Source of the DNA: Syntrophales bacterium
GTDB taxonomy: Bacteria; Desulfobacterota; Syntrophia; Syntrophales; UBA2210
NCBI GenBank assembly: GCA_036825195.1
Contig: DAISYQ010000001.1
Location: 179,629 to 243,628 of the forward strand
Reading direction: 5' to 3'
Length of the DNA: 64,000 nucleotides
The notes beneath the pieces are model-generated. The model saw only the letters and a program-made list of their open reading frames with translations, made no database searches and was not told the origin of the DNA. A program made the position numbers and the translations under genes. Positions within the stretch are counted from its first letter, which is position 1; each line of letters opens with the position of its first letter. Below, in pieces: positions 2,819 through 61,712 of the stretch.

Positions 2819-3523
2819 TCATAATGACTTCTCAGGCTTTTCAGAGGGCAGAAGGTACGATTCAACAAAATCCATGACAAATCGGGCATAGTCCTCCACG
2901 GACACCTTTCTTCTTCGGTATTTCCACCGCTTAAGATACCAGTCCTGAAGCACGGCCTTGATGACGGCCGCCGTGAGATCCCCTTCAACGGTCGCAAAGA
3001 GCCCCGCCGCAATACCTTCTTCAACGATGTCGGAAAAGATATTTTCCGTAAACAGCTCCGCCTCGATGGCTTTTTTGTGTGTGTCTTTATTGAGGTTTTT
3101 GGTCTCCATATAGGCAAAGTAAAACCAGAGTTGCATGACTTCACTGAGATACAGGTGAGTCTGTATCGCCCTTCTCAGTTTCTGATGCGGATCGTCGATT
3201 CCTTCAATCTGGTCGGCAAGCACCTTCACAACAAGGGTTTGCCCCTGGGTTTGTATCATATCGAGGAGCTCTTCCTTACTGGAAAAATAGGTATAGAGGG
3301 CGCCCATGCTGAGTCCCGCTTCGGTGCTCAACTCCCGAAGGCTCATGGCCGTAAATCCCTTCTTGTTGCTTATGGCGAGTGCCGCATCGAATATCTTGAC
3401 AAGATTCTTGACGGCAACACCCTCTTTCTTTATCTTTATTTTTTCCCTGTTTTCCAGAAAGAGTTCCCTGCAGATATCCTCCTCGGAAAGATTGACCATC
3501 TTTTTAAAGGTTTCAAATCTCAC
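2819..3523 (-). CDS. TetR/AcrR-family transcriptional regulator
   Basis: 234-aa ORF. The N-terminal HTH region (AVKNLVKIFDAALAISNKKGFTAMSLRELSTEAGLSMGALYTYFSSKEELL) is typical of TetR_N. It starts 9 nt after the upstream acyl-CoA dehydrogenase stop, so it is probably the last gene of the operon. Confidence 0.85.
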   Translation of the reverse strand: MRFETFKKMVNLSEEDICRELFLENREKIKIKKEGVAVKNLVKIFDAALAISNKKGFTAMSLRELSTEAGLSMGALYTYFSSKEELLDMIQTQGQTLVVKVLADQIEGIDDPHQKLRRAIQTHLYLSEVMQLWFYFAYMETKNLNKDTHKKAIEAELFTENIFSDIVEEGIAAGLFATVEGDLTAAVIKAVLQDWYLKRWKYRRRKVSVEDYARFVMDFVESYLLPSEKPEKSL

Positions 3524-3532
3524 GTTCGCCTC

Positions 3533-4741
3533 TTACCTCACTTCTCGATCCTTGTATTCCCTCAGAATCCTGCGGGCAACGGACACCTTGTGCACCTCGT
3601 CCGCACCGTCATATATCCTGGCTGCCCGTTCATGGCGGTAATAATAGGGAATTATGCAGTCATCCGTCATCCCCAGTCCTCCGTGGACCTGCAGTGCCTT
3701 GTCCATTACATTCTGCATCACATTCGCCACGTAGAATTTGATGAGAGAAATATCCTCTCGCACCTCTTTGACGCCATGGTTCTCGATCTTCCATGCGGTA
3801 TGGAGTGTGAACAGCCGCGCCGCCTGTATATCGGCGGCACACTCGGCAATCCAGGCCTGAATGATCTGCTTTGTTGCAAGGGTCCTTCCATCCGGTGTCA
3901 CCACCCTCTCCGATGCCCGTTTGCACATGAGGTCAAACATCCTCTTGCAGATTCCCAGCCATCTCATACAGTGATGAATGCGGCCCGGTCCGAGTCGCTC
4001 CTGGGCGATGACAAATGCATGTCCTTCCGGACCCAGAAGATTTGTCAGGGGCACGCGACAATTCTGATACATGATCTCTCCATGACCGGTATAATCCGTG
4101 CCTGCTTCTCCCATGACCGGGATATTCCGAACCTGATTGAAGCCGGGGGTGTCGGTGGGAACGATGATCATACTGGTCCGAAGATAGGGAGGATTTTCCG
4201 GGTTTGTCGTGGCCATCACAATGGCAAAGGCAGCGCCGTCCGATGAAGAGGAGTACCACTTATGACCATTGATGACATACTCGTCCCCATCTTTGACGGC
4301 CGTGGCATTCATCATCACCGGGTTGGAGCCGGGCATGTCGATCTCGGTCATGGAAAAACAGCTCCTCATATCTCCCGCCACGAGCGGTCTGAGCCACTTC
4401 TCTTTCTGCTCGTCGGTTCCGTACTTGTAAAGGATCTCTATATTACCGGCATCAGGGGCCTGACACCCAAAAACGTAGTGACCGATGGGCGATCTACCCA
4501 GGGATTCGGATACAAAGGCATGTTCCACAAGATTAAGACCCATGCCGCCGAATTCCTTCGGATGATTCGGGGCCCAGAGCTCCATCTGTTTCACCATTTT
4601 TCTCTTTTCCGCAAGCACGGGGAGCATCTCCCTGAACGTCTTGTTCAGAAATTCGGGCTCGAGGGGTATGAGTTCCTTATCTACAAACTCATCGATCATG
4701 CCCGTAATAACCTGGATTGTTTCAGGTATTGAAAAATCCAT
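3533..4741 (-). CDS. Acyl-CoA dehydrogenase, FadE2 / ACAD10-11 C-terminal-domain type
   Basis: The sequence from MDFSIPETIQVITGMIDEFVDKELIPLEPEF... onward has ACAD-fold length and motifs (MTEIDMPGSNP, RIYDGADEVH). SD AAGGAGG precedes ATG 4741. The tracked ORF start at 4819 is probably too early. Confidence 0.85.
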   Translation of the reverse strand: MDFSIPETIQVITGMIDEFVDKELIPLEPEFLNKTFREMLPVLAEKRKMVKQMELWAPNHPKEFGGMGLNLVEHAFVSESLGRSPIGHYVFGCQAPDAGNIEILYKYGTDEQKEKWLRPLVAGDMRSCFSMTEIDMPGSNPVMMNATAVKDGDEYVINGHKWYSSSSDGAAFAIVMATTNPENPPYLRTSMIIVPTDTPGFNQVRNIPVMGEAGTDYTGHGEIMYQNCRVPLTNLLGPEGHAFVIAQERLGPGRIHHCMRWLGICKRMFDLMCKRASERVVTPDGRTLATKQIIQAWIAECAADIQAARLFTLHTAWKIENHGVKEVREDISLIKFYVANVMQNVMDKALQVHGGLGMTDDCIIPYYYRHERAARIYDGADEVHKVSVARRILREYKDREVR

Positions 4742-4870
4742 GTGACACCTCCTTCGAGGATATGTTGTGATCATGATTGGGTTTACAAGATTGCACTCCC
4801 TTGTGTTTCTTATGGACAAACATATGAAACCCCGAACGGTTTATGCTTTCAATGCAAGGATATAGATGCC

Positions 4871-5938
4871 TTACAGAGAGCCCTTTTCTAGTGCCCGCAA
4901 CGCCGCCCGTTCCAGGATTTGAACCCCCACGATCATCATCTGGAACCTCTGATCGGATGTCTGTCCGTGATAGTAACGGTAGTAGATCTGCTGGGCGATA
5001 ACCGCCAGGCGGAACAGACCGAAACAGTAGTAAAAGGTGATATCATCAAATGATATGCCGGATTTTTCCGCGTAGAGATCGATCTGTTCTTTCCGGGTCA
5101 TCGCAAACTCGATTGGCTCCGGCATAAACCGCAGCATCTGCAGTTCGGGCGGATCATTTTTTTCCACACGATATGCCAGAATATTCCCGATATCCATGGC
5201 CGGATCTCCGATGGTGGCCATCTCCCAATCCAATACCCCGATAATACTGGTCGGATCGTTGATGTCGACGACCATGTTATCGAGCTTGAAATCGTTATGT
5301 ACAATGGCCGCGCGATCGGGATCGGGGGGCATGTTTGCATGAATCCATGACATGATAACTTCACAATCCGGAGCATCAGGGGTGCGAGCCTGACGGTAGC
5401 GTTCGCTCCAACCTTCGACCTGGCGCTGTATATATCCTTCGGGCTTGCCGAAGGTCTCGAGCCCGACCTGTTTGTAATCGATGGAGTGCAGACGGGCATG
5501 CACATCCACCATGTTTTCGTTCAACGCACGGGCCTGATCCGGGTTGAACATGACACCATCGGGAAGCTCCTTCCTGATTACCATCCCCTTGATACGCTTC
5601 ATCAGATAGAATGGACTGCCCAGTATGGAATCGTCTTCCGTATACAGAACAGGTGCCGGACACCAGGGGAACACCCCGTGCAGTGCACCCAGAATCGTGT
5701 ACTCCCGTTGCATATCATGGGCGGTCTTTGCCTTCCTGCCTATGGGAGGCCGTCTGAGAATCAACTCTTCGTTCCCGATCCTGACAAGATAGGTGAGGTT
5801 TGAGTGACCGCCGGGAAATTGTTTGAGCATGACAGGGCCTTTCAGACTCGGGAGAGCCTCTTTCAGAAATGACTCTATCGTGCCGATATTGAGTTCCTCT
5901 CCTTTCCTGGCCGAGACCGCCTGGTCTGCTGCTTTCAT
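4871..5938 (-). CDS. Aminoglycoside-phosphotransferase-fold kinase, ACAD10/11 N-terminal-domain / LvaA-like
   Basis: Catalytic loop IVHNDFKLDNMVVD (HxDxxxxN) and metal-binding VLDWEMATIGDPAMD. It is adjacent to and co-directional with the FadE2-type ACAD. SD AGGGGGGTGG precedes ATG 5938. Confidence 0.8.
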   Translation of the reverse strand: MKAADQAVSARKGEELNIGTIESFLKEALPSLKGPVMLKQFPGGHSNLTYLVRIGNEELILRRPPIGRKAKTAHDMQREYTILGALHGVFPWCPAPVLYTEDDSILGSPFYLMKRIKGMVIRKELPDGVMFNPDQARALNENMVDVHARLHSIDYKQVGLETFGKPEGYIQRQVEGWSERYRQARTPDAPDCEVIMSWIHANMPPDPDRAAIVHNDFKLDNMVVDINDPTSIIGVLDWEMATIGDPAMDIGNILAYRVEKNDPPELQMLRFMPEPIEFAMTRKEQIDLYAEKSGISFDDITFYYCFGLFRLAVIAQQIYYRYYHGQTSDQRFQMMIVGVQILERAALRALEKGSL

Positions 5939-5963
5939 CACCACCCCCCTTTCGTAGGTACAT

Positions 5964-6941
5964 TTACGATCCTTCAAATAATCGACGCGGATTGTCTACC
6001 ATCATGGTTGTGATCTGCTCCTCAGTTATTCCGGCCTTTTTCAAAACGGGAAGCACCTCTTCAAAGATGCGGGTGGGCCTCCAGTTCGGCATCCCTTTCG
6101 AGATGATCTTCGAAACGCCTGGCCTGGCCAGCCAGAAATTAACCCAGTCATGGGAGAGCATAATCTGCGTCGCATAGCCTAATCCCAAAAGACCGATCAG
6201 ACACGCCTCACGACGCGAATCAGGCGGTGCTCCAACGATACCTTCGACTCCGAAACGATCGAACCCGATGTATACTCCCTTTTCCAGGATACGCATCAGA
6301 TATTCCATATCGGTGCTGCCGCCAATATGGCCTATCATGACACGTTGAGGGTCCGCCCCTTCGGCAATCAGCAGTTCCGCCTGCTCAAGCCCCATGGTGC
6401 CCTTCTCTGTGTGGGTCAGGATAGGAATCGCTTCTTCCTTCGAGACTTTTGCAGCCGCTCTGAAAAACATCTCTTCATAAGCGGAAATTACGCCTTTACT
6501 TGATGCCAGTTTCAATACTCCGGGTCTTATGCCCGTTGTGCCTATACCGTCGATCACCTCTTTCTTAAACATGTCGTATATCTGTGTGACACCTTTTCCG
6601 AATTTACTCATTGTCTTGAAATACGGGGAAGCACCCTCCGCTTCCGAATAGTATCCCGAAGCACAGATGATATTGAGTCCACTTTTCTCCGCAATTTCCC
6701 GCAACAACAGCGGATTGCGGCCGCAGTCATTCGTCGTGGCGTCCACGACGGTATTCACTCCGTGGGCCATGATATTTTCCGCCATTTCCAATCCAGCGTT
6801 TATACAGGCATTCCGATCGAACGGTGCCAGGGTGATGTCTCCTTCAAAGCCTGGATAACCAAAGACAAAGTGCTCGTGCATCAGTGTCGTGCCTAAAGCA
6901 TCCGATGGTACGGTCCCTGATACAGTCTGAATTTTCCGCAT
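5964..6941 (-). CDS. Phosphotriesterase-family (PHP / PTE-like lactonase) binuclear-metal amidohydrolase
   Basis: 325 aa. The metal-ligand pattern is intact: LMHEHF (HxH), VLKLASSKG (Lys), LTHTEKG, MIGHIGGS, MLSHDW. SD AGGAGG is upstream. Confidence 0.85.
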   Translation of the reverse strand: MRKIQTVSGTVPSDALGTTLMHEHFVFGYPGFEGDITLAPFDRNACINAGLEMAENIMAHGVNTVVDATTNDCGRNPLLLREIAEKSGLNIICASGYYSEAEGASPYFKTMSKFGKGVTQIYDMFKKEVIDGIGTTGIRPGVLKLASSKGVISAYEEMFFRAAAKVSKEEAIPILTHTEKGTMGLEQAELLIAEGADPQRVMIGHIGGSTDMEYLMRILEKGVYIGFDRFGVEGIVGAPPDSRREACLIGLLGLGYATQIMLSHDWVNFWLARPGVSKIISKGMPNWRPTRIFEEVLPVLKKAGITEEQITTMMVDNPRRLFEGS

Positions 6942-6969
6942 GTTTCAACTCCTCCTGATGTAGATATGA

Positions 6970-8655
6970 TTACATATTCTTTAGTTCATTTTTTAATATT
7001 TTTCCACCAGGATTCTTGGGAAGCATGGTATTGGTTACGACAACATAATCGGGCACCTTGAAATCCGCGATACGTTTGCGGCAAAAATCTTTAATTTCAT
7101 CCTCTGAGAGGATCTCACCCGGTACCGGCCAGATCACCGCCTTTGTTTTTTCACCCAGTACCGTGTCCGGAACGCCGACGACACCGACTTCAAGCACCTT
7201 GGGATGCAGGCTGATCAGGTTTTCGAGTTCAACGGAATAGACATTCTCGCCACCCCTGCATATCATGCTTTTAATGCGGTCCACCACATAGGTATAACCG
7301 TCATCATCCATGTAGCCCAAATCTCCCGTTTTAAACCAGCGCCTGTCATTTTCGTCGGTACAGAAGCTTGCGACTGTCTCTTCCGGCAGGTTCCAGTACC
7401 CCGGGCTGATTGAGGGGCTGCATGCCAGGATCTCGCCGGTCTCTCCCCGGGCCACGTCGCGCAGTTGTGAATCGACGATGCGCAGACCGCTGTTCCCCAT
7501 GGCACCCCCAACGCTGCCGGGCTTGGAAAGGATCGTGTCCCAGTCACCGGCCATACCCAGCAGCCAGCCGGCGGAAGCCCCTTCGGTGAAACCGTAGCCA
7601 TTTCCAATGCGGGAATTCGGAAAATCTTCTGAGAGCCTGAGGCACATCTCGGGTGGCATGGGGGAACCGCCCTGCAGGATGTAGGCAAGTTTGTTGGCCT
7701 TCACGAGGTCGGGATAGCGAGGCTGGAGGCTTAAAATCCAGTACATGGCGGCAACGATGATGGTGAAGTTTATCTTTTCATCGATCAACGCATCCAACAC
7801 CTGTCCCGGGCTGAAGGTGGTAACTGCTACGGCCGAGGCACCCATGAGGTTCAGATTGATCAGGGTATGCAGTGTGGTGACATGAAAAAAGGGCGTCACA
7901 ATCAGTTGCTTCCATTCGCTGATGTCCGTGTCGGGATCATAGATCTTTGCCAGGGAGTGTTTGCAGTTCATGGCATTGTTGATCACGCCGCGGTGCAGGG
8001 TAATGGTTCCCTTGGGCCTACCGGTTGTGCCTGAGGTATAGATCAGACTGCAGATATCTCGCTCGGTTACGTCAACCAGGACTTCACGGGGAGCCTTTTT
8101 CTCCATCATAGCGCCGAGCGGTATCGCCGAGTCTTTTGCCTCCGTGCCGGAAACAAAGAGGTACCGCAGATTGGGTACTATCCTCTCAATATCCTTAACG
8201 GTCTCCCACAGGCTCGCTTCTATTGCCGCGGCGATGCAACCGCTGTCTTCGAGCTGCCTCCGGGCCTCGTCTGCGGCAAGCCTTGCATTGATAATAACGG
8301 AAATGGCCCCGATCTGCGACAATGCCAGATACATGACGAAGGCCTCGGGAATATTGTTCATCATGATTGCAACCCGTTCGCCCTTTTCAATGCCGTAGTC
8401 CTGCTGCAGGCAGTAGGCAACGTTGTTGACCACCGCATCAAATTCATTGTAACTCCAGCGGATGTTGAAATCCGGGAAAAAGAGCATCTCCCTGTCACCA
8501 AACCGGGCCACCCCTTCTTTCATGAGTTCGGTCAACGTCCCATACCGGCAGGCCCATACATCCTGAATCTCGTTTTCATAGCGTACCCTGATTACCCCGT
8601 CCCTTGGCCATTGCAGAGGCGGCGTAAGGGACACGTGAGAAGATCTTCTTGACAT
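6970..8655 (-). CDS. AMP-forming acyl-CoA ligase (adenylate-forming superfamily)
   Basis: AMP-binding core IYTSGTTGRPKGTI, GYGFTE, TGDLGYMDDDGY, and a C-terminal K in PKNPGGKILK. SD AAGGAGGG precedes ATG 8655. The tracked start at 8688 is an alternative. Confidence 0.85.
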   Translation of the reverse strand: MSRRSSHVSLTPPLQWPRDGVIRVRYENEIQDVWACRYGTLTELMKEGVARFGDREMLFFPDFNIRWSYNEFDAVVNNVAYCLQQDYGIEKGERVAIMMNNIPEAFVMYLALSQIGAISVIINARLAADEARRQLEDSGCIAAAIEASLWETVKDIERIVPNLRYLFVSGTEAKDSAIPLGAMMEKKAPREVLVDVTERDICSLIYTSGTTGRPKGTITLHRGVINNAMNCKHSLAKIYDPDTDISEWKQLIVTPFFHVTTLHTLINLNLMGASAVAVTTFSPGQVLDALIDEKINFTIIVAAMYWILSLQPRYPDLVKANKLAYILQGGSPMPPEMCLRLSEDFPNSRIGNGYGFTEGASAGWLLGMAGDWDTILSKPGSVGGAMGNSGLRIVDSQLRDVARGETGEILACSPSISPGYWNLPEETVASFCTDENDRRWFKTGDLGYMDDDGYTYVVDRIKSMICRGGENVYSVELENLISLHPKVLEVGVVGVPDTVLGEKTKAVIWPVPGEILSEDEIKDFCRKRIADFKVPDYVVVTNTMLPKNPGGKILKNELKNM

Positions 8656-8840
8656 GGCTCCCTCCTTTTTTATGGTCGTACATGACATGAATTTGACAGC
8701 ATCTGTCTTGTACTGTGCAATGCATCGTGTGTCAACAAAATAATGAGCGAGCGCTCGTTTTTTAATTGCAATATTTCACCCGCTACAGTACCATCTGGCA
8801 GAATGCATAAATACAAATGTATCTCAGGACTGGATGGTGT

Positions 8841-9611
8841 ATGAAAATTCTGGTATGCGTAAAGCAGGTTCCCGACTCTGATGGGGCGATATCCATAAGC
8901 ACCTCAGAGAGCAGGGTCGTCTTTGAGGGGACCTACCGGATGAACCGCTTTGACGAGTATGCCTTGGAGGAAGCCCTCCGGATACGGGAAAAGATATCCG
9001 TCGAGACCATTGATATCGTATCGGTAGGTCCCGTCAGGGTCGAATCGACGATACGAAAATCCTTAGAGATGGGCGCATCGAGGGGCTTTCATATCTTCAT
9101 CGAAGGTGAGGAACACATGAACCCGTTTGAGACGGCCACACGGATTGCATCATTTGCCGGAAGGGAGGGGTACGATCTCATTCTCACCGGAGTCATGGCC
9201 GAAGACGATATGCAGAGCCAGGTAGGTCCGATGATCGCCGAGATGCTCGGTTATCCCTCCGCATCGTCCGTCATCTCCGAGGACATAGATCAGGAAAAAG
9301 GAATCCTCTACGCAGAGCGGGAAATCGAATCGGGGATGAGGGAATGCATCGAAATGCAACTCCCCGCCCTGATCACCGTACAGTCGGGCATTAATCGCCC
9401 CCGCTACCCCGCACTTTCGCACGTACTGCGGGCGCGATCCCAGAGAATAACAGTACTCACGGAAAACCCGGGAGAGGAACCGGCAAAACGGGAAAAGATC
9501 GTTACCTTCAGGTATCCCGAGACGACATCGAAGGGGCTGTTCCTGGAAGGCGAAACGAGAGAAAAGGCCAGGGAACTCATGCAGATATTGCACGAGAGAA
9601 CAATCATATGA
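8841..9611 (+). CDS. etfB: Electron transfer flavoprotein beta subunit
   Basis: Canonical N-terminus MKILVCVKQVPD with EtfB-length architecture. Its stop overlaps the etfA start (ATGA). Confidence 0.9.
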   Translation: MKILVCVKQVPDSDGAISISTSESRVVFEGTYRMNRFDEYALEEALRIREKISVETIDIVSVGPVRVESTIRKSLEMGASRGFHIFIEGEEHMNPFETATRIASFAGREGYDLILTGVMAEDDMQSQVGPMIAEMLGYPSASSVISEDIDQEKGILYAEREIESGMRECIEMQLPALITVQSGINRPRYPALSHVLRARSQRITVLTENPGEEPAKREKIVTFRYPETTSKGLFLEGETREKARELMQILHERTII

Positions 9612-10621
9612 ACAATACGATACGGAAGAATAAGATCGTCGCAATCGCCGAACATCGTCAGGGAACTATCACGCCAGCAACGGGGGAAACCCTCTCCCTT
9701 GTCCGGGAGATCGGAGAACTGCTCAACCTGGAAGCAACTATCCTGCTTCTTGGCACATCCATAGAGCATGGGGCATCTCAGATTGCTGCGACGACCGGTA
9801 TGGATGTAATCGCTATCGAAGGAACGGGCCTCGAACCGTACAATTGCGAAGCCTATCTGACCGCTCTCACGAGACCGCTCAAGGCATTAGATCCGCACTA
9901 TATCGTACTGCCGCATACTGCCATGGGATATGATCTCGCACCCCGTCTTGCCGTCCTCCTGCAGGCCTCTTCCATAACGGCCGTCGAGCAACTGTCTGTA
10001 AGAGGTGAATCTCTCACGTTTTTGCGGTCTCAGTGGAACGGGAAGGTCATCCTTGAAGTTGTCCCACTGACCGAACGGACGGTGGTCACCGCACTTCCCG
10101 GCTGCTGGCCCGAACTTGTTGAAAAACCGGAAAAAATCGGGAAGGTAACAATCATCCCTTGCGATACATTCCCGGTTCGTTCGAAAACCACCGGCATCAA
10201 AGAGGCCTCAAGAATGGAATTCGACCTTACTAAAGCGGATGTGATCGTAGCGGCGGGGAGAGGACTGGGGAAAGAAGAGAATCTGCAGCTTATCTACGAA
10301 CTGTCCGGGATCTTTCAGAAATCGGCGGTAGGTGCATCAAGGGCGGCCTGCGATGCGGGATGGTTTGACTACGGCAGACAGATAGGAATTACGGGGCAAA
10401 CCGTTTCACCAAATCTGTACATCGCCTGCGGGATCTCCGGGTCAACACAGCATATGGCAGGTATGAAGAGGTCTCGGATGGTGATCGCTATCAACACCGA
10501 TCCATTGGCATCGATTTTCGGCATAGCGGACTATTGTATCGTGGAAGATCTTGCCACCTTTATCCCCTGCCTCCTGGAAGAATACAATCTCGTTTCCCGT
10601 GGTCGCCACGATCCGGAGTAA
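9608..10621 (+). CDS. etfA: Electron transfer flavoprotein alpha subunit
   Basis: The C-terminal FAD-binding region (VVAAGRGLG...AVGASRAACDAGW...QIGITGQTVSPNLYIACGISGSTQHMAGM...IVAINTDP) is a diagnostic EtfA motif set. Confidence 0.9.
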   Translation: MNNTIRKNKIVAIAEHRQGTITPATGETLSLVREIGELLNLEATILLLGTSIEHGASQIAATTGMDVIAIEGTGLEPYNCEAYLTALTRPLKALDPHYIVLPHTAMGYDLAPRLAVLLQASSITAVEQLSVRGESLTFLRSQWNGKVILEVVPLTERTVVTALPGCWPELVEKPEKIGKVTIIPCDTFPVRSKTTGIKEASRMEFDLTKADVIVAAGRGLGKEENLQLIYELSGIFQKSAVGASRAACDAGWFDYGRQIGITGQTVSPNLYIACGISGSTQHMAGMKRSRMVIAINTDPLASIFGIADYCIVEDLATFIPCLLEEYNLVSRGRHDPE

Positions 10622-10818
10622 TGCCTTTCTCCTTTGGCTCGGCACCTCATCACAAAACAGGCATAAGGTCCATGCAATGCATATGCTGACGGCACCCGTA
10701 ACCGTCGGAAAGATCCCCCGTAACGATTCCGATCTGTTGTATGTTTGCAGGTACCGTGTGGGAGCATCTCCTCCCCAAGGCGAGATCTCTTCAGATACAA
10801 GGAGGGAAATTCAAACCC

Positions 10819-11226
10819 TTAAAAAGGCACATCATCGTCAGGCATACTAAAACCATTCGGTGACGACATCTCCGTCCCGAACGACTGGTTGGATCCCTGG
10901 TCTTTGCGTTCAAGCATCTGCATGTTGGAGGCTATGATTTCCGTGGTGTAGCGTTTGTTGCCATCCTTGTCGTCCCAGGCCCTCGTTTGCAGCCGACCTT
11001 CAATATAGACCAGTCTCCCTTTTGACAGGTAATTTCCTGAGATCTCCGCAAGTTTTCTGAACGTAACAATCCTGTGCCACTCCGTTTTCTGGATCTTTTC
11101 TCCATTCTTGTCCTTCCACTGTTCATCGGTGGCCAGGTTGAAATTGGTTACCATGGTACCATCCTGGGTGTACCGTACCTCCGGATCCGCACCCAGTCTT
11201 CCAATCAATATGACTTTATTAACCAT
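10819..11226 (-). CDS. ssb: Single-stranded DNA-binding protein
   Basis: [22 protein letters not shown]-fold start with an acidic C-terminal tip DDDVPF. Confidence 0.95.
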
Positions 11227-11457
11227 TTCTCGCTCCTTGTGAAAATTTCTTTATGAGATACCAAACAGACTATATTGTTGAATGTTAATCCTGTCAAATT
11301 AATTATCTGTACTATGGTTCCGGTGCACTACCGTATATTCTCCATTGACTTCGTCAGTATTATTAAGTAGAAAATTGCACATATCCCTTGGTTGTATCCC
11401 CATGTTGCGGGATATGGCGCTTATTACAGTATTCTTGGTAGAAAGAAGGATGTATAG

Positions 11458-12282
11458 TTGGACATTTGGGGGGGAATCCTACTTGGTATAATTCAGGGAC
11501 TGACAGAATTTCTTCCCGTGAGCAGTTCCGGTCACCTGGTGCTGGTGCAAAGTTTCATACAGGAGTTTCAACAACCGGGGGTACTGTTCGATGTTATGCT
11601 GCATTCCGGGACGCTTCTGGCCGTTCTGGTTTTTTTCAGGAAAGAAATTCTGGATATTATACGATCACTCATGCCGGTTGGATGGTTCCCGAGTTCCAAG
11701 AGAAGCAATGACCCCATGCAGATCCGTTCCGGGAGAAAGATGGCGCTCTATATTATAATCGGAACGATAGTAACAGGGATTATCGGTCTCTCATGTGAGG
11801 ACAGGATACACCGTCTTTTTGCCTCGCCAACAACGGCTTCCTGCATGTTGCTTATCACCGGAATGCTGCTGTTTATATCCGACCGATTTCGGGGGGGCAG
11901 AGTGGAAAAGGATATGAATATTACCGACAGCGTTGTGATCGGAATTGTTCAGGGATTTTCGCTGATTCCCGGAATATCACGATCCGGCTCCACGATTGCT
12001 TTCGGCATCTTTCGGGGGCTGGACGGCCAGACGGCTGCCCGATTTTCATTTATGCTCTCCATCCCCGCCATCGTGGGCGCCCTTGTTCTCGAGTCAAGAT
12101 ATATAGGGATGGTGCCCCCCGGCGATATGACAATCTATCTGACAGGAATGATCGTCGCCGCTGTAACCGGTTTTCTGACGCTGAAGCTTCTGCTCTTTGT
12201 GATCAGAAAACGGAAACTGAGCATATTTGCTTATTATTGCTGGATTCTTGGAATTTCTACATTGATTATTAACATAATTTAA
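11458..12282 (+). CDS. uppP: Undecaprenyl-diphosphate phosphatase
   Basis: GLTEFLPVSSSGHL and PGISRSGSTI motifs with multiple TM segments. Apparent TTG start. Confidence 0.9.
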   Translation: MDIWGGILLGIIQGLTEFLPVSSSGHLVLVQSFIQEFQQPGVLFDVMLHSGTLLAVLVFFRKEILDIIRSLMPVGWFPSSKRSNDPMQIRSGRKMALYIIIGTIVTGIIGLSCEDRIHRLFASPTTASCMLLITGMLLFISDRFRGGRVEKDMNITDSVVIGIVQGFSLIPGISRSGSTIAFGIFRGLDGQTAARFSFMLSIPAIVGALVLESRYIGMVPPGDMTIYLTGMIVAAVTGFLTLKLLLFVIRKRKLSIFAYYCWILGISTLIINII

Positions 12283-59658: not shown

Positions 59659-61712
59659 AATCCGATCTCTGCCTCCATACGCGACAGTTCCTTAATCTCA
59701 TCTCTGATTCGTGCCGCCCTTTCAAATTCGAGCTTTTTGGCGGCTCGTTTCATCTCTCCCTCGAGCTTTTTGATCATGGCGGGAATATCACCGGATACAT
59801 ACGCCTCCACCTTCTCCTCCACGCTGACGGTAATATAATCCGCTTCATAAATGGAACTCAAAAGATCGCTTATCTCCTTCTTGACAGATTCCGGCGTGAT
59901 ATGGTGTTCCTCATTAAACTTCTGTTGTATCTGCCTTCTTCTTCTCGTCTCGTCAAGACAGGACTGAATGGCCTTTGTAATCCTGTCCGCATACATGATG
60001 ACCTGGCCCTTGACGTTTCTTGCCGTCCTCCCGCTCGTCTGTATAAGCGAGCGCTCGGAACGAAGGAATCCCTCCTTGTCGGCGTCAAGGATTGCCACGA
60101 GAGATACTTCGGGGATATCGAGCCCCTCTCTGAGGAGATTTATTCCAATAAGGGTGTCATACTTTCCCATCCGAAGGTCCCGTATGATCGCAACCCGTTC
60201 GAGCGTGTCGATATCGGAGTGAAGGTACGCCACTTTCATCCCGAGATCATGATAGTGCTCCGTGAGATTTTCCGCCATCCTCTTTGTCAGCGTGGTCACC
60301 AGTACGCGATCCCCCTGCTTGACCCGTTTGTTGATTTCTCCGAATAGATCGTCCACCTGATTGGCAACCGGTCTGATCATTATTTCCGGGTCCATAAGTC
60401 CGGTAGGGCGAATGATCTGTTCCGCAACGACGCCGGCGGCCTTCTTCAGCTCATACTCCGCCGGGGTGGCCGATATATAGAGTCTCTGGTTCGGAAAGGT
60501 CTCATATTCCTTAAAGGTAAGGGGCCGGTTATCGAGGGCGGAGGGCAGACGGAATCCATACTCTACGAGGGTTTCCTTCCGCGATCGATCCCCCCGGTAC
60601 ATGGCGTTTATCTGTGGAATCGTGGCATGACTCTCATCAATGATTACGAGGGCATCCTTGGGAAGGTATTCCATCAGCGTGGGTGGCGGCTCCCCCGTCA
60701 TACGTCCCGTGAGATGACGGGAATAATTTTCAATTCCCTGGCAGTACCCCATCTCCTCCATCATCTCCAGGTCGAACAGCGTTCTCTGTTCAAGGCGCTG
60801 TGCCTCCAAGAGTTTGTCCCGCGATCTCAGGCTGTCAAGACGCAATGCCAACTCCTCACGTATGGCGGCAAGGGCTCTCGTCATGGTGTCTCGTGTCGTC
60901 ACATAGTGGCTTGACGGATATATGGAAGTACTGCTGAGTCTGCTCAAGGCTTTTCCCCGGAGGGGGTCCACAAGGGATATGGATTCAATGACATCACCGA
61001 AAAAATCCACCCGTATCGCCTGCTCCTCTTCATAGGCAGGAAAAATTTCCACCACGTCTCCACGGACGCGAAAAGTGCCTCGATGAAAATCTATATCATT
61101 GCGCTCATACTGAATCTCCACCAGTTTCCTCAGCAGTTGATCTCTTTCGATCTCCATATCCTTTTCAAGAGATATCTGCATATCGGCATATTTATCCGGA
61201 GCGCCTATTCCATAGATGCATGATACACTGGCCACAACAATCACGTCTCTCCTCTCCAACAGCGAGCGGGTGGCGGAATGGCGCATCTTGTCTATCCGGT
61301 CGTTTATGGAGGAATCTTTCTCAATATATGTGTCGGTGCTGGGCACATAGGCTTCCGGCTGGTAGTAGTCATAGTAACTGACAAAATATTCAACGGCATT
61401 CTGAGGAAAGAGCACTTTGAATTCATTGTAGAGTTGCGCCGCCAGGGTCTTGTTATGGGCGATGACAAGAGAGGGTTTCTGTGTCGCCTCAATAACATTC
61501 GCGATGGTAAAGGTCTTGCCGGAACCGGTAACTCCGAGAAGCACCTGGTGCTCCAATCCTTTTTCAATACCACGTACCAGATCTGCTATTGCTCGCGGCT
61601 GATCTCCCTGTGGTGTAAAATCGGTTATTATCTTAAGAGGTTCCACTCCATACTCCCCGGATGTATAAGCGTTCTTGCGTGCCCTCGCCGTGCGGGCCAA
61701 AATGATGCCCAT
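59649..61712 (-). CDS. uvrB: Excinuclease ABC subunit B
   Basis: [11 protein letters not shown], Walker A GVTGSGKT, helicase motifs, and a C-terminal UVR domain ([12 protein letters not shown]). An alternative GTG start at 61646 ([10 protein letters not shown]...) fits the family N-terminus better. Confidence 0.95.

What the first reader, a model, noticed from the sequence alone, without database searches (positions are those of the whole stretch)
2819..8655. Operon pairing an ACAD10/11-type kinase and FadE2-type ACAD with a phosphotriesterase-like lactonase and a CoA ligase: predicted lactone / 4-hydroxy-acid catabolism
Seen in sequence: five co-directional, tightly spaced minus-strand genes.
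- CoA ligase (8655-6970).
- PTE-family hydrolase (6941-5964), with intact binuclear-metal ligands HEH...K...HTE...GHIGGS...SHD.
- APH-fold kinase (5938-4871), with HNDFKLDN and DWE motifs.
- Acyl-CoA dehydrogenase (4741-3533).
- TetR regulator (3523-2819).
- A divergent etfBA pair lies at 8841-10621.

Established knowledge:
- The kinase+ACAD pair is the architecture of Pseudomonas putida LvaA/LvaC (levulinate pathway) and of mammalian ACAD10/ACAD11.
- These enzymes convert 4-hydroxyacyl-CoA to 2-enoyl-CoA via a 4-phosphoacyl-CoA intermediate.
- PTE-like lactonases hydrolyse gamma/delta-lactones to hydroxy acids.

Inference: the four enzymes form a complete route. A lactone is opened to a 4-hydroxy acid, which is converted to a CoA ester, then 4-phosphorylated. 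Phosphate elimination then yields an enoyl-CoA that feeds the beta-oxidation genes in this window. To my knowledge this lactonase-containing combination has not been characterised in an anaerobic fatty-acid oxidiser.
Basis: partly seen in the sequence, partly recalled or inferred. Interest (0 to 1): 0.6.

Follow-up and report, generated by a model that had tools for sequence, protein, structure and literature searches.

The report
Lactone and 4-hydroxy-acid breakdown operon
An uncultured Syntrophales bacterium keeps a lactone-opening enzyme, a CoA ligase and the bacterial counterparts of mammalian ACAD10/11 (kinase plus phosphate-eliminating flavoenzyme) under one repressor. This is a sensible, untested route for feeding gamma-lactones into fat breakdown, and it suggests a natural job for a well-studied lactonase family whose role was unclear.

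Summary
The five co-directional minus-strand genes are real, at the stated coordinates, and every family assignment holds.

- **Kinase:** it groups with the ACAD11 kinase domain and keeps the catalytic Asp/Asn and both CoA-contacting arginines.
- **ACAD:** it carries the ACAD10/11/LvaC signature (Arg, HCMR motif, catalytic Asp in place of Glu).
- **Hydrolase:** it is a PLL-B lactonase, close to GsP/GKL/Dr0930, with all metal ligands.

- Of 80 PLL-B loci from other species, 44 have a CoA ligase directly adjacent.
- 36 have this kinase and/or an HCMR-type ACAD within 10 kb, in Syntrophales, Bacillota and Rubrobacteria.
- 10 anaerobe loci carry an AbfD-like 4-hydroxybutyryl-CoA dehydratase, nine of them in place of the kinase/ACAD pair.
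- A second operon in this same genome pairs lactonase and ligase with a kinase and a 25-phosphosteroid-lyase-like protein.

Same-genus genomes without the lactonase keep only ACAD-TetR-kinase, so lactonase plus ligase looks like an add-on. The divergent etfBA is not conserved with the operon.

Nothing is shown biochemically. The closest precedents are the P. putida lva operon, ACAD10/11 and the Rhodococcus qsdR-qsdA-qsdC operon. I found no paper describing this combination. This scan has noted similar modules on other DNA (e1-2950998, e1-5281163, e1-4785022). Verdict: a new variant of a known kind, of moderate interest.

The parts
6970..8655 (-). AMP-forming acyl-CoA ligase (561 aa), first gene of the operon
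   Evidence: Pfam AMP-binding 2e-64 plus AMP-binding_C. Nearest solved relatives are FadD5 and FadD13. AAGGAGG lies 6 nt before the ATG at 8655. A ligase sits directly beside the lactonase in 44 of 80 related loci.
5964..6941 (-). PLL-B type phosphotriesterase-like lactonase (325 aa), cytoplasmic
   Evidence: E 1e-110 to GsP/GKL (3f4c, 3orw, 4h9u) and 3e-108 to Dr0930 (3fdk), against 1e-47 to 1e-53 for PLL-A enzymes. Metal ligands H22, H24, K144, H177, H205, D265, plus Y98 and R229, are invariant.
4871..5938 (-). APH-fold kinase of the ACAD10/11 kinase-domain type; predicted 4-hydroxyacyl-CoA kinase (355 aa)
   Evidence: PDB hits: 9o56 E 4e-94, 3dxp 3e-47, mouse ACAD11 8v3v 1e-45. The equivalents of ACAD11 D220, N225, R86 and R176 are conserved in the alignment (residues from PMC12440821).
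3533..4741 (-). ACAD10/11/LvaC-type acyl-CoA dehydrogenase homologue; predicted 4-phosphoacyl-CoA phosphate-eliminating enzyme (402 aa)
   Evidence: Best PDB hits are 4hr3, human ACAD11 2wbi and mouse ACAD11 8v3u (E 4e-78 to 5e-76), against 2e-49 for ordinary ACADs. The sequence RLGPGRIHHCMR and the catalytic Asp in YDGADEVH match the family signature (PMC12440821).
2819..3523 (-). TetR-family regulator, last gene of the operon
   Evidence: TetR_N plus TetR_C_24. Nearest solved relatives are 3vpr and B. subtilis FadR 3whb. It travels with the ACAD and kinase in same-genus genomes.
8656..8840 (.). Divergent control region with the palindrome CGAGCGCTCG (8748-8757) just upstream of a TTGACA box; candidate TetR operator
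   Evidence: Sequence. The same exact 10-mer lies upstream of the related operons in L001, L002, L003 and L091.
8841..10621 (+). etfB/etfA pair, divergent neighbour; probably not part of the module
   Evidence: Pfam ETF and ETF_alpha. Conserved next to the operon only in the closest relative L001.

Best explanation
This is a TetR-repressed catabolic operon for alkyl gamma-lactones and the 4-hydroxy fatty acids they yield.

Proposed steps:
1. The cytoplasmic PLL-B lactonase opens the lactone ring.
2. The AMP-forming ligase makes the 4-hydroxyacyl-CoA.
3. The APH-fold kinase phosphorylates the 4-hydroxyl with ATP.
4. The ACAD10/11/LvaC-type flavoenzyme eliminates phosphate to give a 2-enoyl-CoA, without net electron transfer. 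The product enters ordinary beta-oxidation.

The TetR protein probably binds the conserved CGAGCGCTCG palindrome and is released by a pathway intermediate.

Shown here: gene order, family membership, signature residues, and recurrent linkage across lineages. Inferred: the substrates, their chain length, the order of steps, the effector and co-transcription.

ACAD-TetR-kinase is the resident Syntrophales module. It is probably needed for any fatty acid whose hydroxyl ends up at C4 during beta-oxidation. Ligase plus lactonase is an accessory front end.
For: - Family and residue tests for kinase, ACAD and lactonase were all met.
- Tight co-directional spacing with no internal terminator.
- Among 80 PLL-B loci from other species: a ligase within 10 kb in 63 and directly adjacent in 44; the kinase in 29 (30 by HMM); an HCMR-type ACAD in 18-20; either one in 36.
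- These genomes hold only 1-2 such kinases per 2-5 Mb, so chance would give fewer than about 2 of 80.
- On the lactonase tree the kinase/ACAD context needs 9-13 changes and occurs in Syntrophales, several Bacillota clades and Rubrobacteria.
- Ten anaerobe loci carry an AbfD-like 4-hydroxybutyryl-CoA dehydratase, nine of them with no kinase or HCMR-type ACAD within 10 kb (1u8v E 1e-83, all four Fe-S ligands kept). This is a different enzyme for the same chemical problem.
- In a sample of 201 Syntrophales genomes, lactonase and kinase co-occur in 8 and are within 3 kb of each other in 5.
- PLL-B enzymes hydrolyse alkyl gamma- and delta-lactones (PMC4338136, PMC4323659).
- ACAD10/11 and bacterial split homologues convert 4-hydroxyacyl-CoA to 2-enoyl-CoA through the 4-phosphate (PMC12440821, PMC11342911).
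Against: - No biochemical, genetic or expression data exist; the organism is uncultured.
- The characterised PLL-B enzyme GkaP prefers delta- over gamma-lactones about tenfold (PMC4338136). Cells fed 5- or 6-hydroxyhexanoate form no phospho-hydroxyacyl-CoA (PMC11342911).
- 35 of 80 PLL-B loci show none of the 4-hydroxyl-removing enzymes within 10 kb.
- 44 of 52 kinase-bearing Syntrophales genomes lack the lactonase. The two halves can therefore work independently.
- The window's kinase is only 56-58% identical to same-genus copies, while the ACAD and TetR are 66-86% identical. This points to a recent mosaic.
- The source of lactones in an anoxic habitat is unknown.
Confidence: 0.68

Rival explanations
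1. The real substrates are free 4-hydroxy fatty acids, or hydroxy acids that become 4-hydroxy during beta-oxidation. The lactonase is then a salvage enzyme. It reopens gamma-lactones that form spontaneously from 4-hydroxy acids or their CoA esters, and the ligase re-activates the acid.
For: ACAD-TetR-kinase exists without a lactonase in same-genus genomes and in most kinase-bearing Syntrophales. The operon has no transporter or lactone-specific sensor. The TetR protein resembles acyl-CoA-responsive FadR-type regulators, not QsdR. That 4-hydroxyacyl thioesters lactonise readily is my own knowledge.
Against: In many lineages the lactonase-ligase pair is the conserved core, with no kinase or ACAD nearby. 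That fits an entry enzyme better than a repair enzyme. PLL-B enzymes reach kcat/Km of about 1e5-1e6 on exogenous flavour-type lactones (PMC4338136).
Confidence: 0.14
2. Two independent modules were joined by rearrangement. Lactonase plus ligase would handle delta-lactones or other esters whose products need no kinase. Kinase plus ACAD would serve unrelated 4-hydroxy acids.
For: The operon has a mosaic history. GkaP prefers delta-lactones (PMC4338136). 35 of 80 lactonase loci lack any 4-hydroxyl-removing enzyme.
Against: The linkage recurs in at least six separate lactonase clades with different gene orders. Two other 4-hydroxyl-removing systems take the same place beside the lactonase. A shared conserved operator lies upstream of the rearranged operon forms.
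Confidence: 0.1
3. A quorum-quenching operon of the Rhodococcus qsd type that degrades N-acyl-homoserine lactones.
For: It shares the architecture of TetR plus PLL lactonase plus fatty-acyl-CoA ligase (PMC6262395).
Against: PLL-B enzymes are described as exclusive oxo-lactonases, unlike PLL-A (PMC4323659). The kinase/ACAD pair has no role in AHL breakdown. The TetR protein is not a detectable QsdR relative.
Confidence: 0.03

Closest known systems
Pseudomonas putida levulinate operon lvaABCDE (Rand et al. 2017, as summarised in PMC11342911 and PMC6692424)
   Same: One operon combines a CoA ligase (LvaE), an APH-type 4-hydroxyacyl-CoA kinase (LvaA) and an ACAD-type phosphate eliminase (LvaC). 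The chemistry from 4-hydroxyacyl-CoA to enoyl-CoA is the same.
   Different: lva has no lactonase. It needs LvaB and a 4-oxo reductase (LvaD) and uses a different regulator. No gap in the window's operon is long enough for an LvaB-sized ORF. The window's kinase is of the type closer to the ACAD10/11 kinase domains.
Mammalian ACAD10 / ACAD11 (PMC12440821, PMC11342911; PDB 8v3u, 8v3v, 2wbi)
   Same: The kinase and ACAD domains are homologous to the two window proteins, with all named catalytic and substrate-binding residues conserved.
   Different: The mammalian proteins are single fused polypeptides (ACAD10 also has a HAD domain). They have no dedicated lactonase or ligase partner and are organellar.
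Rhodococcus erythropolis qsdR-qsdA-qsdC gamma-lactone / AHL catabolic operon (PMC6262395, PMC6476934)
   Same: A TetR repressor controls a phosphotriesterase-like lactonase and a fatty-acyl-CoA ligase, and the system is used to catabolise gamma-lactones.
   Different: QsdA is a PLL-A enzyme and qsdR is divergently transcribed. No kinase or ACAD10/11-type gene is described in that operon, so the fate of the 4-hydroxyacyl-CoA was left open. The window's TetR protein is not a detectable QsdR relative.
PLL-B lactonases GsP, GKL/GkaP and Dr0930 (PDB 3f4c, 4h9u, 3fdk; PMC4338136, PMC4323659)
   Same: These are the closest solved relatives by a wide margin (E about 1e-110), with identical metal ligands. 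They hydrolyse alkyl gamma- and delta-lactones.
   Different: They were studied as isolated enzymes for promiscuity and engineering, and their biological role is stated to be unclear. In the Parageobacillus locus (L074) only a ligase is linked, with no kinase or ACAD.
4-hydroxybutyryl-CoA dehydratase AbfD (PDB 1u8v) and the 25-hydroxysteroid kinase / 25-phosphosteroid lyase pair (PDB 9fzn; PMC8449060)
   Same: Both are alternative ways to remove a hydroxyl from an activated substrate. Homologues of each occupy the kinase/ACAD position next to PLL-B lactonase plus ligase in other loci.
   Different: Neither is present in the window's operon. They bear on the pathway logic, not on membership.

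Membership tests
ACAD10/11/LvaC-type phosphate-eliminating ACAD | Catalytic aspartate in place of the canonical ACAD glutamate (mouse ACAD11 D753) | tested here: met
   YDGADEVH aligns with ACAD11 ADGPDEVH. Feature taken from PMC12440821.
ACAD10/11/LvaC-type phosphate-eliminating ACAD | HCMR motif plus the upstream arginine (R626, H634, R637 of mouse ACAD11) | tested here: met
   RLGPGRIHHCMR is present with the same spacing. The same string occurs in the linked ACADs of L020, L025 and L044.
ACAD10/11/LvaC-type phosphate-eliminating ACAD | Closer to ACAD11 than to ordinary ACADs | tested here: met
   E 4e-78 to 5e-76 for 4hr3, 2wbi and 8v3u, against 2e-49 for the best ordinary ACAD.
ACAD10/11/LvaC-type phosphate-eliminating ACAD | Releases phosphate from 4-phosphoacyl-CoA without an electron acceptor | not testable with these tools
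   Needs an enzyme assay.
ACAD10/11-type 4-hydroxyacyl-CoA kinase (APH fold) | Catalytic Asp and its Asn partner (ACAD11 D220, N225) | tested here: met
   HNDFKLDN aligns with HGDFKLDN. The D-to-A mutant chain 8v3u marks the catalytic position.
ACAD10/11-type 4-hydroxyacyl-CoA kinase (APH fold) | CoA-contacting arginines (ACAD11 R86, R176) | tested here: met
ACAD10/11-type 4-hydroxyacyl-CoA kinase (APH fold) | Groups with the ACAD10/11 kinase domain rather than with antibiotic or choline kinases | tested here: met
   ACAD11 E 1e-45 and 3dxp 3e-47, against 3.5e-13 for the next APH. NCBIfam antibiotic-kinase models score only E 1e-4. No tree including LvaA was built because no LvaA sequence was available from the tools.
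PLL-B phosphotriesterase-like lactonase | Binuclear metal ligands (His, His, carboxylated Lys, His, His, Asp) and the lactonase Tyr and Arg | tested here: met
   H22, H24, K144, H177, H205, D265, Y98 and R229 are invariant in alignment A1.
PLL-B phosphotriesterase-like lactonase | Clusters with GKL/GsP/Dr0930 rather than with PLL-A or PTE | tested here: met
   E 1e-110 against 1e-47 to 1e-53 for PLL-A and 1e-41 for PTE.
Rhodococcus qsd-type operon | TetR repressor plus PLL lactonase plus fatty-acyl-CoA ligase in one locus | tested here: met
   All three are present. Architecture from PMC6262395.
Rhodococcus qsd-type operon | Orthology of the regulator to QsdR and of the lactonase to the PLL-A enzyme QsdA | tested here: not met
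   QsdR (4za6) is not among the TetR hits at E <= 1e-3. The lactonase is PLL-B.
P. putida lva operon | Presence of the LvaB partner and the LvaD reductase | tested here: not met
   The operon has only five genes. Gaps of 9-129 nt leave no room for a further gene, and no SDR is present.

The most novel reading that the evidence does not exclude
PLL-B lactonases, whose biological role has been called unclear, may be the regular entry enzymes of bacterial gamma-lactone / 4-hydroxyacyl-CoA catabolism. The blocking 4-hydroxyl would then be removed by one of three interchangeable systems placed beside lactonase plus ligase:
- kinase plus ACAD10/11-type flavoenzyme (this window);
- an AbfD-type Fe-S/flavin dehydratase (strict anaerobes);
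- kinase plus a 25-phosphosteroid-lyase-like DUF7065/DUF7064 protein.

This genome carries the first system in the window and the third on contig C22. The third would be a flavin-free phospho-lyase acting on acyl-CoA esters, a reaction not yet described.
Probability: 0.4. Interest if true: 0.72.

Novelty: new variant of a known kind. Interest (0 to 1): 0.55.

Why it matters
- It gives a concrete, testable natural function to the PLL-B lactonases (Dr0930, GKL, GsP). These have been engineered for years without a known physiological role.
- It supplies the step left open in the Rhodococcus gamma-lactone pathway, namely what happens to the 4-hydroxyacyl-CoA.
- It shows that the ACAD10/11-type chemistry recently found in mammals is used by strictly anaerobic syntrophs, with a dedicated front end.
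- Lactones such as gamma-valerolactone and flavour lactones are industrial solvents and products, so a compact four-enzyme route is also of practical use.

Tried and rejected
- **Papers not held:** Rand et al. 2017 (PMC5705400) and Xiang et al. 2009 (PMC3176505) are not held. Statements on them rest on citing papers or on my memory.
- **PDB 9o56:** this closest kinase structure has no paper in the library.
- **Literature searches:** full-text searches combining ACAD10/ACAD11, 4-hydroxyacyl-CoA, lactonase and PLL terms found no paper that links a lactonase to the kinase/ACAD pair. This is absence in the held library only.
- **Single-sequence AlphaFold model of the DUF7065/7064 protein:** unusable (pLDDT 35). 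It was repeated with an alignment.
- **etfBA as part of the module:** rejected, because it is conserved only in L001.
- **Second copy of the palindrome at 60048:** it lies inside a 687-aa ORF and is probably chance.
- **The 248-aa ORF between the palindrome and the ACAD in L002:** it has no Pfam match and may not be a gene.
- **APH kinases near the Rubrobacter lactonase-ACAD pairs:** none was found within 10 kb, even with an HMM.


Full report
**Observation.** The window holds five co-directional minus-strand genes at the coordinates given.
- An AMP-forming ligase at 6970-8655. Its ATG at 8655 follows AAGGAGG.
- A PTE-family hydrolase at 5964-6941.
- An APH-fold kinase at 4871-5938.
- An acyl-CoA dehydrogenase homologue at 3533-4741. 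Its ATG follows GAAGGAGG.
- A TetR regulator at 2819-3523.

The gaps are 28, 25, 129 and 9 nt, and the pattern scan finds no convincing minus-strand terminator in them. Pfam confirms every family. The neighbours on the left are rodZ and an inositol monophosphatase. On the right lie a divergent etfBA pair, then ssb, uppP and ftsK. The module is therefore a small island among housekeeping genes. Earlier notes of this scan describe the organism as an uncultured Syntrophales bacterium. The assembly is 3.49 Mb and 96% complete.

**Kinase.** Its best solved relatives are:
- an unnamed 'aminoglycoside phosphotransferase', 9o56 (E 4e-94);
- 3dxp (E 3e-47);
- the kinase domain of mouse ACAD11, 8v3v (E 1e-45).

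The next APH-family structure scores only 3.5e-13, and NCBIfam antibiotic-kinase models score about 1e-4. In the ACAD11 alignment HNDFKLDN matches HGDFKLDN. The D-to-A mutant chain 8v3u marks that Asp as the catalytic D220, and the Asn partner N225 is kept. The two arginines that the ACAD11 study places on the CoA moiety (R86 beside the alpha-C glutamate, R176 in the RQV stretch) are also conserved (PMC12440821).

**ACAD.** Its best hits are M. abscessus 4hr3, human ACAD11 2wbi and mouse ACAD11 8v3u (E 4e-78 to 5e-76). Ordinary ACADs begin at 2e-49. PMC12440821 defines the subgroup by three features: a catalytic aspartate instead of glutamate, an HCMR motif, and an upstream arginine thought to hold the phosphate. 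The window protein has RLGPGRIHHCMR with the same spacing, and YDGADEVH aligned to ADGPDEVH. Both ACAD10/11 papers report that this reaction needs no external electron acceptor (PMC11342911, PMC12440821).

**Lactonase.** It matches the Geobacillus enzymes GsP and GKL at E about 1e-110 and Deinococcus Dr0930 at 3e-108. PLL-A enzymes such as SsoPox score 1e-47 to 1e-53, and true phosphotriesterases about 1e-41. The six metal ligands, plus the conserved Tyr and Arg, are invariant in an alignment of 21 relatives. The literature describes PLL-B enzymes as exclusive oxo-lactonases whose biological function is unclear (PMC4323659). GkaP hydrolyses gamma-decalactone at 7e4 and delta-nona/decalactone at 5e5 to 1e6 per M per s (PMC4338136). 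The protein has no signal peptide, so it should act in the cytoplasm.

**Is the linkage more than chance?** I scanned one genome per species with the lactonase alignment and kept the 80 best loci, each with 10 kb of flank.

| Feature within 10 kb of the lactonase | Loci of 80 |
|---|---|
| CoA ligase | 63 |
| CoA ligase directly adjacent, same strand | 44 |
| This kinase family | 29 (30 with an HMM) |
| ACAD with both signature motifs | 18, plus 2 with HCMR only |
| Kinase and/or such an ACAD | 36 |

Five of these genomes hold only one or two such kinases in 2-5 Mb, so chance proximity would give fewer than about two loci.
- The linked loci come from Syntrophales, several separate Bacillota groups (Neobacillus, Planococcaceae, Salirhabdus/Salinibacillus, Pueribacillus, Alicyclobacillus/Marinithermofilum) and Rubrobacteria. 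Gene orders differ between them.
- On a lactonase tree the kinase/ACAD context needs 13 changes, at least 9 of them forced by well-supported branches.
- The other frequent neighbours are SDRs, enoyl-CoA hydratases, 3-hydroxyacyl-CoA dehydrogenases, a quinone-oxidoreductase-type MDR and Liv-type ABC transporters. All fit acyl-CoA catabolism.

**An independent line of support.** Ten loci, almost all from strict anaerobes, carry a 520-aa HpaB-family gene close to the lactonase and ligase. Nine of the ten have no kinase or HCMR-type ACAD within 10 kb.
- The taxa are Sporomusa, Desulfitobacterium, Desulfosporosinus, a Peptococcaceae genome, Acididesulfobacillus, one Syntrophaceae MAG and MAGs deposited as delta-proteobacterium or Proteobacteria.
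- The best solved relative of this gene is 4-hydroxybutyryl-CoA dehydratase AbfD (1u8v, E 1e-83).
- All four Fe-S ligands (C99, C103, H292, C299) are conserved.

This is a different enzyme for the same task, removing a 4-hydroxyl from an acyl-CoA. Such non-orthologous replacement argues that the product of lactonase plus ligase is indeed a 4-hydroxyacyl-CoA.

**How the operon was assembled.** In a sample of 201 Syntrophales genomes:
- the lactonase is found in 22 and the kinase in 52;
- both occur in 8, and in 5 of those they lie within 3 kb of each other.

Same-genus and same-family genomes without the lactonase carry ACAD-TetR-kinase only. Their ACAD is 77-86% identical to the window's and their TetR 66-81%, but their kinase only 56-58%. 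Other relatives show ACAD-TetR-kinase-ligase-lactonase (L002, L003), ligase-lactonase-kinase (L004, L005) or TetR-kinase-ligase-lactonase-DUF7064 (L091). Only the closest relative, L001, shares the window's order and its etfBA and rodZ neighbours. I read ACAD-TetR-kinase as the resident module. It is probably needed whenever beta-oxidation brings a hydroxyl to C4. Ligase-lactonase, sometimes with its own kinase, would be a mobile front end. This last step is inference.

**Regulation.**
- The exact palindrome CGAGCGCTCG sits just upstream of a TTGACA box in the divergent region.
- It recurs upstream of the related operons in L001, L002, L003 and L091. A 10-mer is expected about 0.02 times per 20-kb locus. 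It is a good operator candidate.
- The TetR protein's nearest solved relatives are 3vpr and B. subtilis FadR. QsdR is not detected. I therefore guess that the effector is an acyl-CoA rather than the lactone ring. This is inference.

**Comparison with what is known.**
- The chemistry from 4-hydroxyacyl-CoA onward is that of LvaA/LvaC and ACAD10/11.
- The front end (TetR, PLL lactonase, fatty-acyl-CoA ligase) has a precedent in the Rhodococcus qsdR-qsdA-qsdC gamma-lactone operon (PMC6262395). That operon uses a PLL-A enzyme and a different TetR, and no kinase or ACAD is described in it.
- From memory, Rand et al. made P. putida grow on gamma-valerolactone by adding a foreign lactonase to the lva pathway. 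The logic has therefore been engineered. I could not check the paper.
- I found no paper in the held library that describes a natural operon joining the two halves.
- This scan has noted similar modules on other DNA: e1-2950998 and e1-5281163 in actinobacteria, and e1-4785022 in another Syntrophales genome. Those are unchecked AI notes. I tested their central claims again here.

**Outside the window: a second lactone module.** The same genome has a second lactonase module on contig C22. Its order is lactonase paralogue (63% identical), ligase, a DUF7065/DUF7064 protein, then a distant APH kinase. It has no ACAD.
- A profile of the DUF family matches 25-phosphosteroid lyase (9fzn, E 2.5e-7) in three collinear stretches. 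One stretch holds an RD-SWG motif whose Asp is Asn in the ligand-bound entry 9g4c.
- A confident model (pLDDT 94) finds the same lyase as top structural hit (E 1e-15, TM about 0.63).
- Family members also sit beside APH kinases in unrelated contigs.

This looks like a third, flavin-free way to remove the hydroxyl: phosphorylation followed by lyase-catalysed elimination.

**Verdict.** The pathway is still unproven.
- Main caveats: the known PLL-B preference for delta-lactones, the many lactonase loci with no 4-hydroxyl-removing enzyme nearby, and the mosaic history of the operon.
- Class: a new variant of a known kind.
- Interest: moderate. It rises if the general link between PLL-B lactonases and 4-hydroxyacyl-CoA processing holds.

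Noticed in passing
L085 (G000 contig C22:27000-45000), genes at 6756-11535 minus strand; also L006, L092, L091:12840-13841: A second lactone module in the same genome: PLL paralogue, AMP-ligase, DUF7065/DUF7064 protein and a distant APH kinase, with no ACAD. The DUF protein is a sequence and fold homologue of 25-phosphosteroid lyase (9fzn/9g4c). This suggests a kinase plus phospho-lyase dehydration of hydroxyacyl-CoA.
   Followed up: partly
L007, L008, L009, L018, L038, L048, L057, L067, L072, L042: In anaerobes the PLL-B lactonase and ligase sit beside an AbfD-like 4-hydroxybutyryl-CoA dehydratase with all Fe-S ligands conserved. In nine of the ten loci there is no kinase/ACAD pair; L042 also has kinase genes.
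   Followed up: partly
L080:about 6560-7300 and 17 other Bacillaceae-type loci (e.g. L054:6557-7294): A ComB-like 2-phosphosulfolactate-phosphatase-family gene sits directly after the kinase in many Bacillaceae lactonase clusters. It may be a phosphatase partner analogous to the HAD domain of ACAD10. Its function is unknown.
   Followed up: no
G036:C9:39517-40608, G085:C22:215314-216405, G099:C10:87323-88411: Some Syntrophales genomes have open frames of 770-807 aa across the kinase match. These are probably bacterial kinase-ACAD fusions with the same architecture as ACAD10/11. L090 shows the kinase and ACAD matches only about 5 nt apart on the same strand.
   Followed up: partly
window 8748-8757; L001:1031, L002:4087, L003:3760, L091:7810; window 60048: The exact palindrome CGAGCGCTCG is conserved upstream of the related operons and is a candidate TetR operator. 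A second exact copy in the window lies inside a 687-aa ORF and is probably chance.
   Followed up: partly
PDB 9o56, compared with window 4871-5938: The closest solved relative of the kinase (E 4e-94) is deposited only as 'aminoglycoside phosphotransferase' and has no paper in the library. It is probably a 4-hydroxyacyl-CoA kinase.
   Followed up: no
protein P0069 (metagenome gene call, 420 aa): One relative carries the PTE domain plus an AMP-binding_C domain in a single gene call. This is either a ligase-lactonase fusion or a missed stop between adjacent genes.
   Followed up: no
L093:4471-8035 and a JGI contig carrying P0241: DUF7064-family genes lie next to APH kinases in unrelated metagenome contigs, in one case also with an AMP-ligase and an SDR. 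The kinase-lyase pairing therefore seems general.
   Followed up: partly
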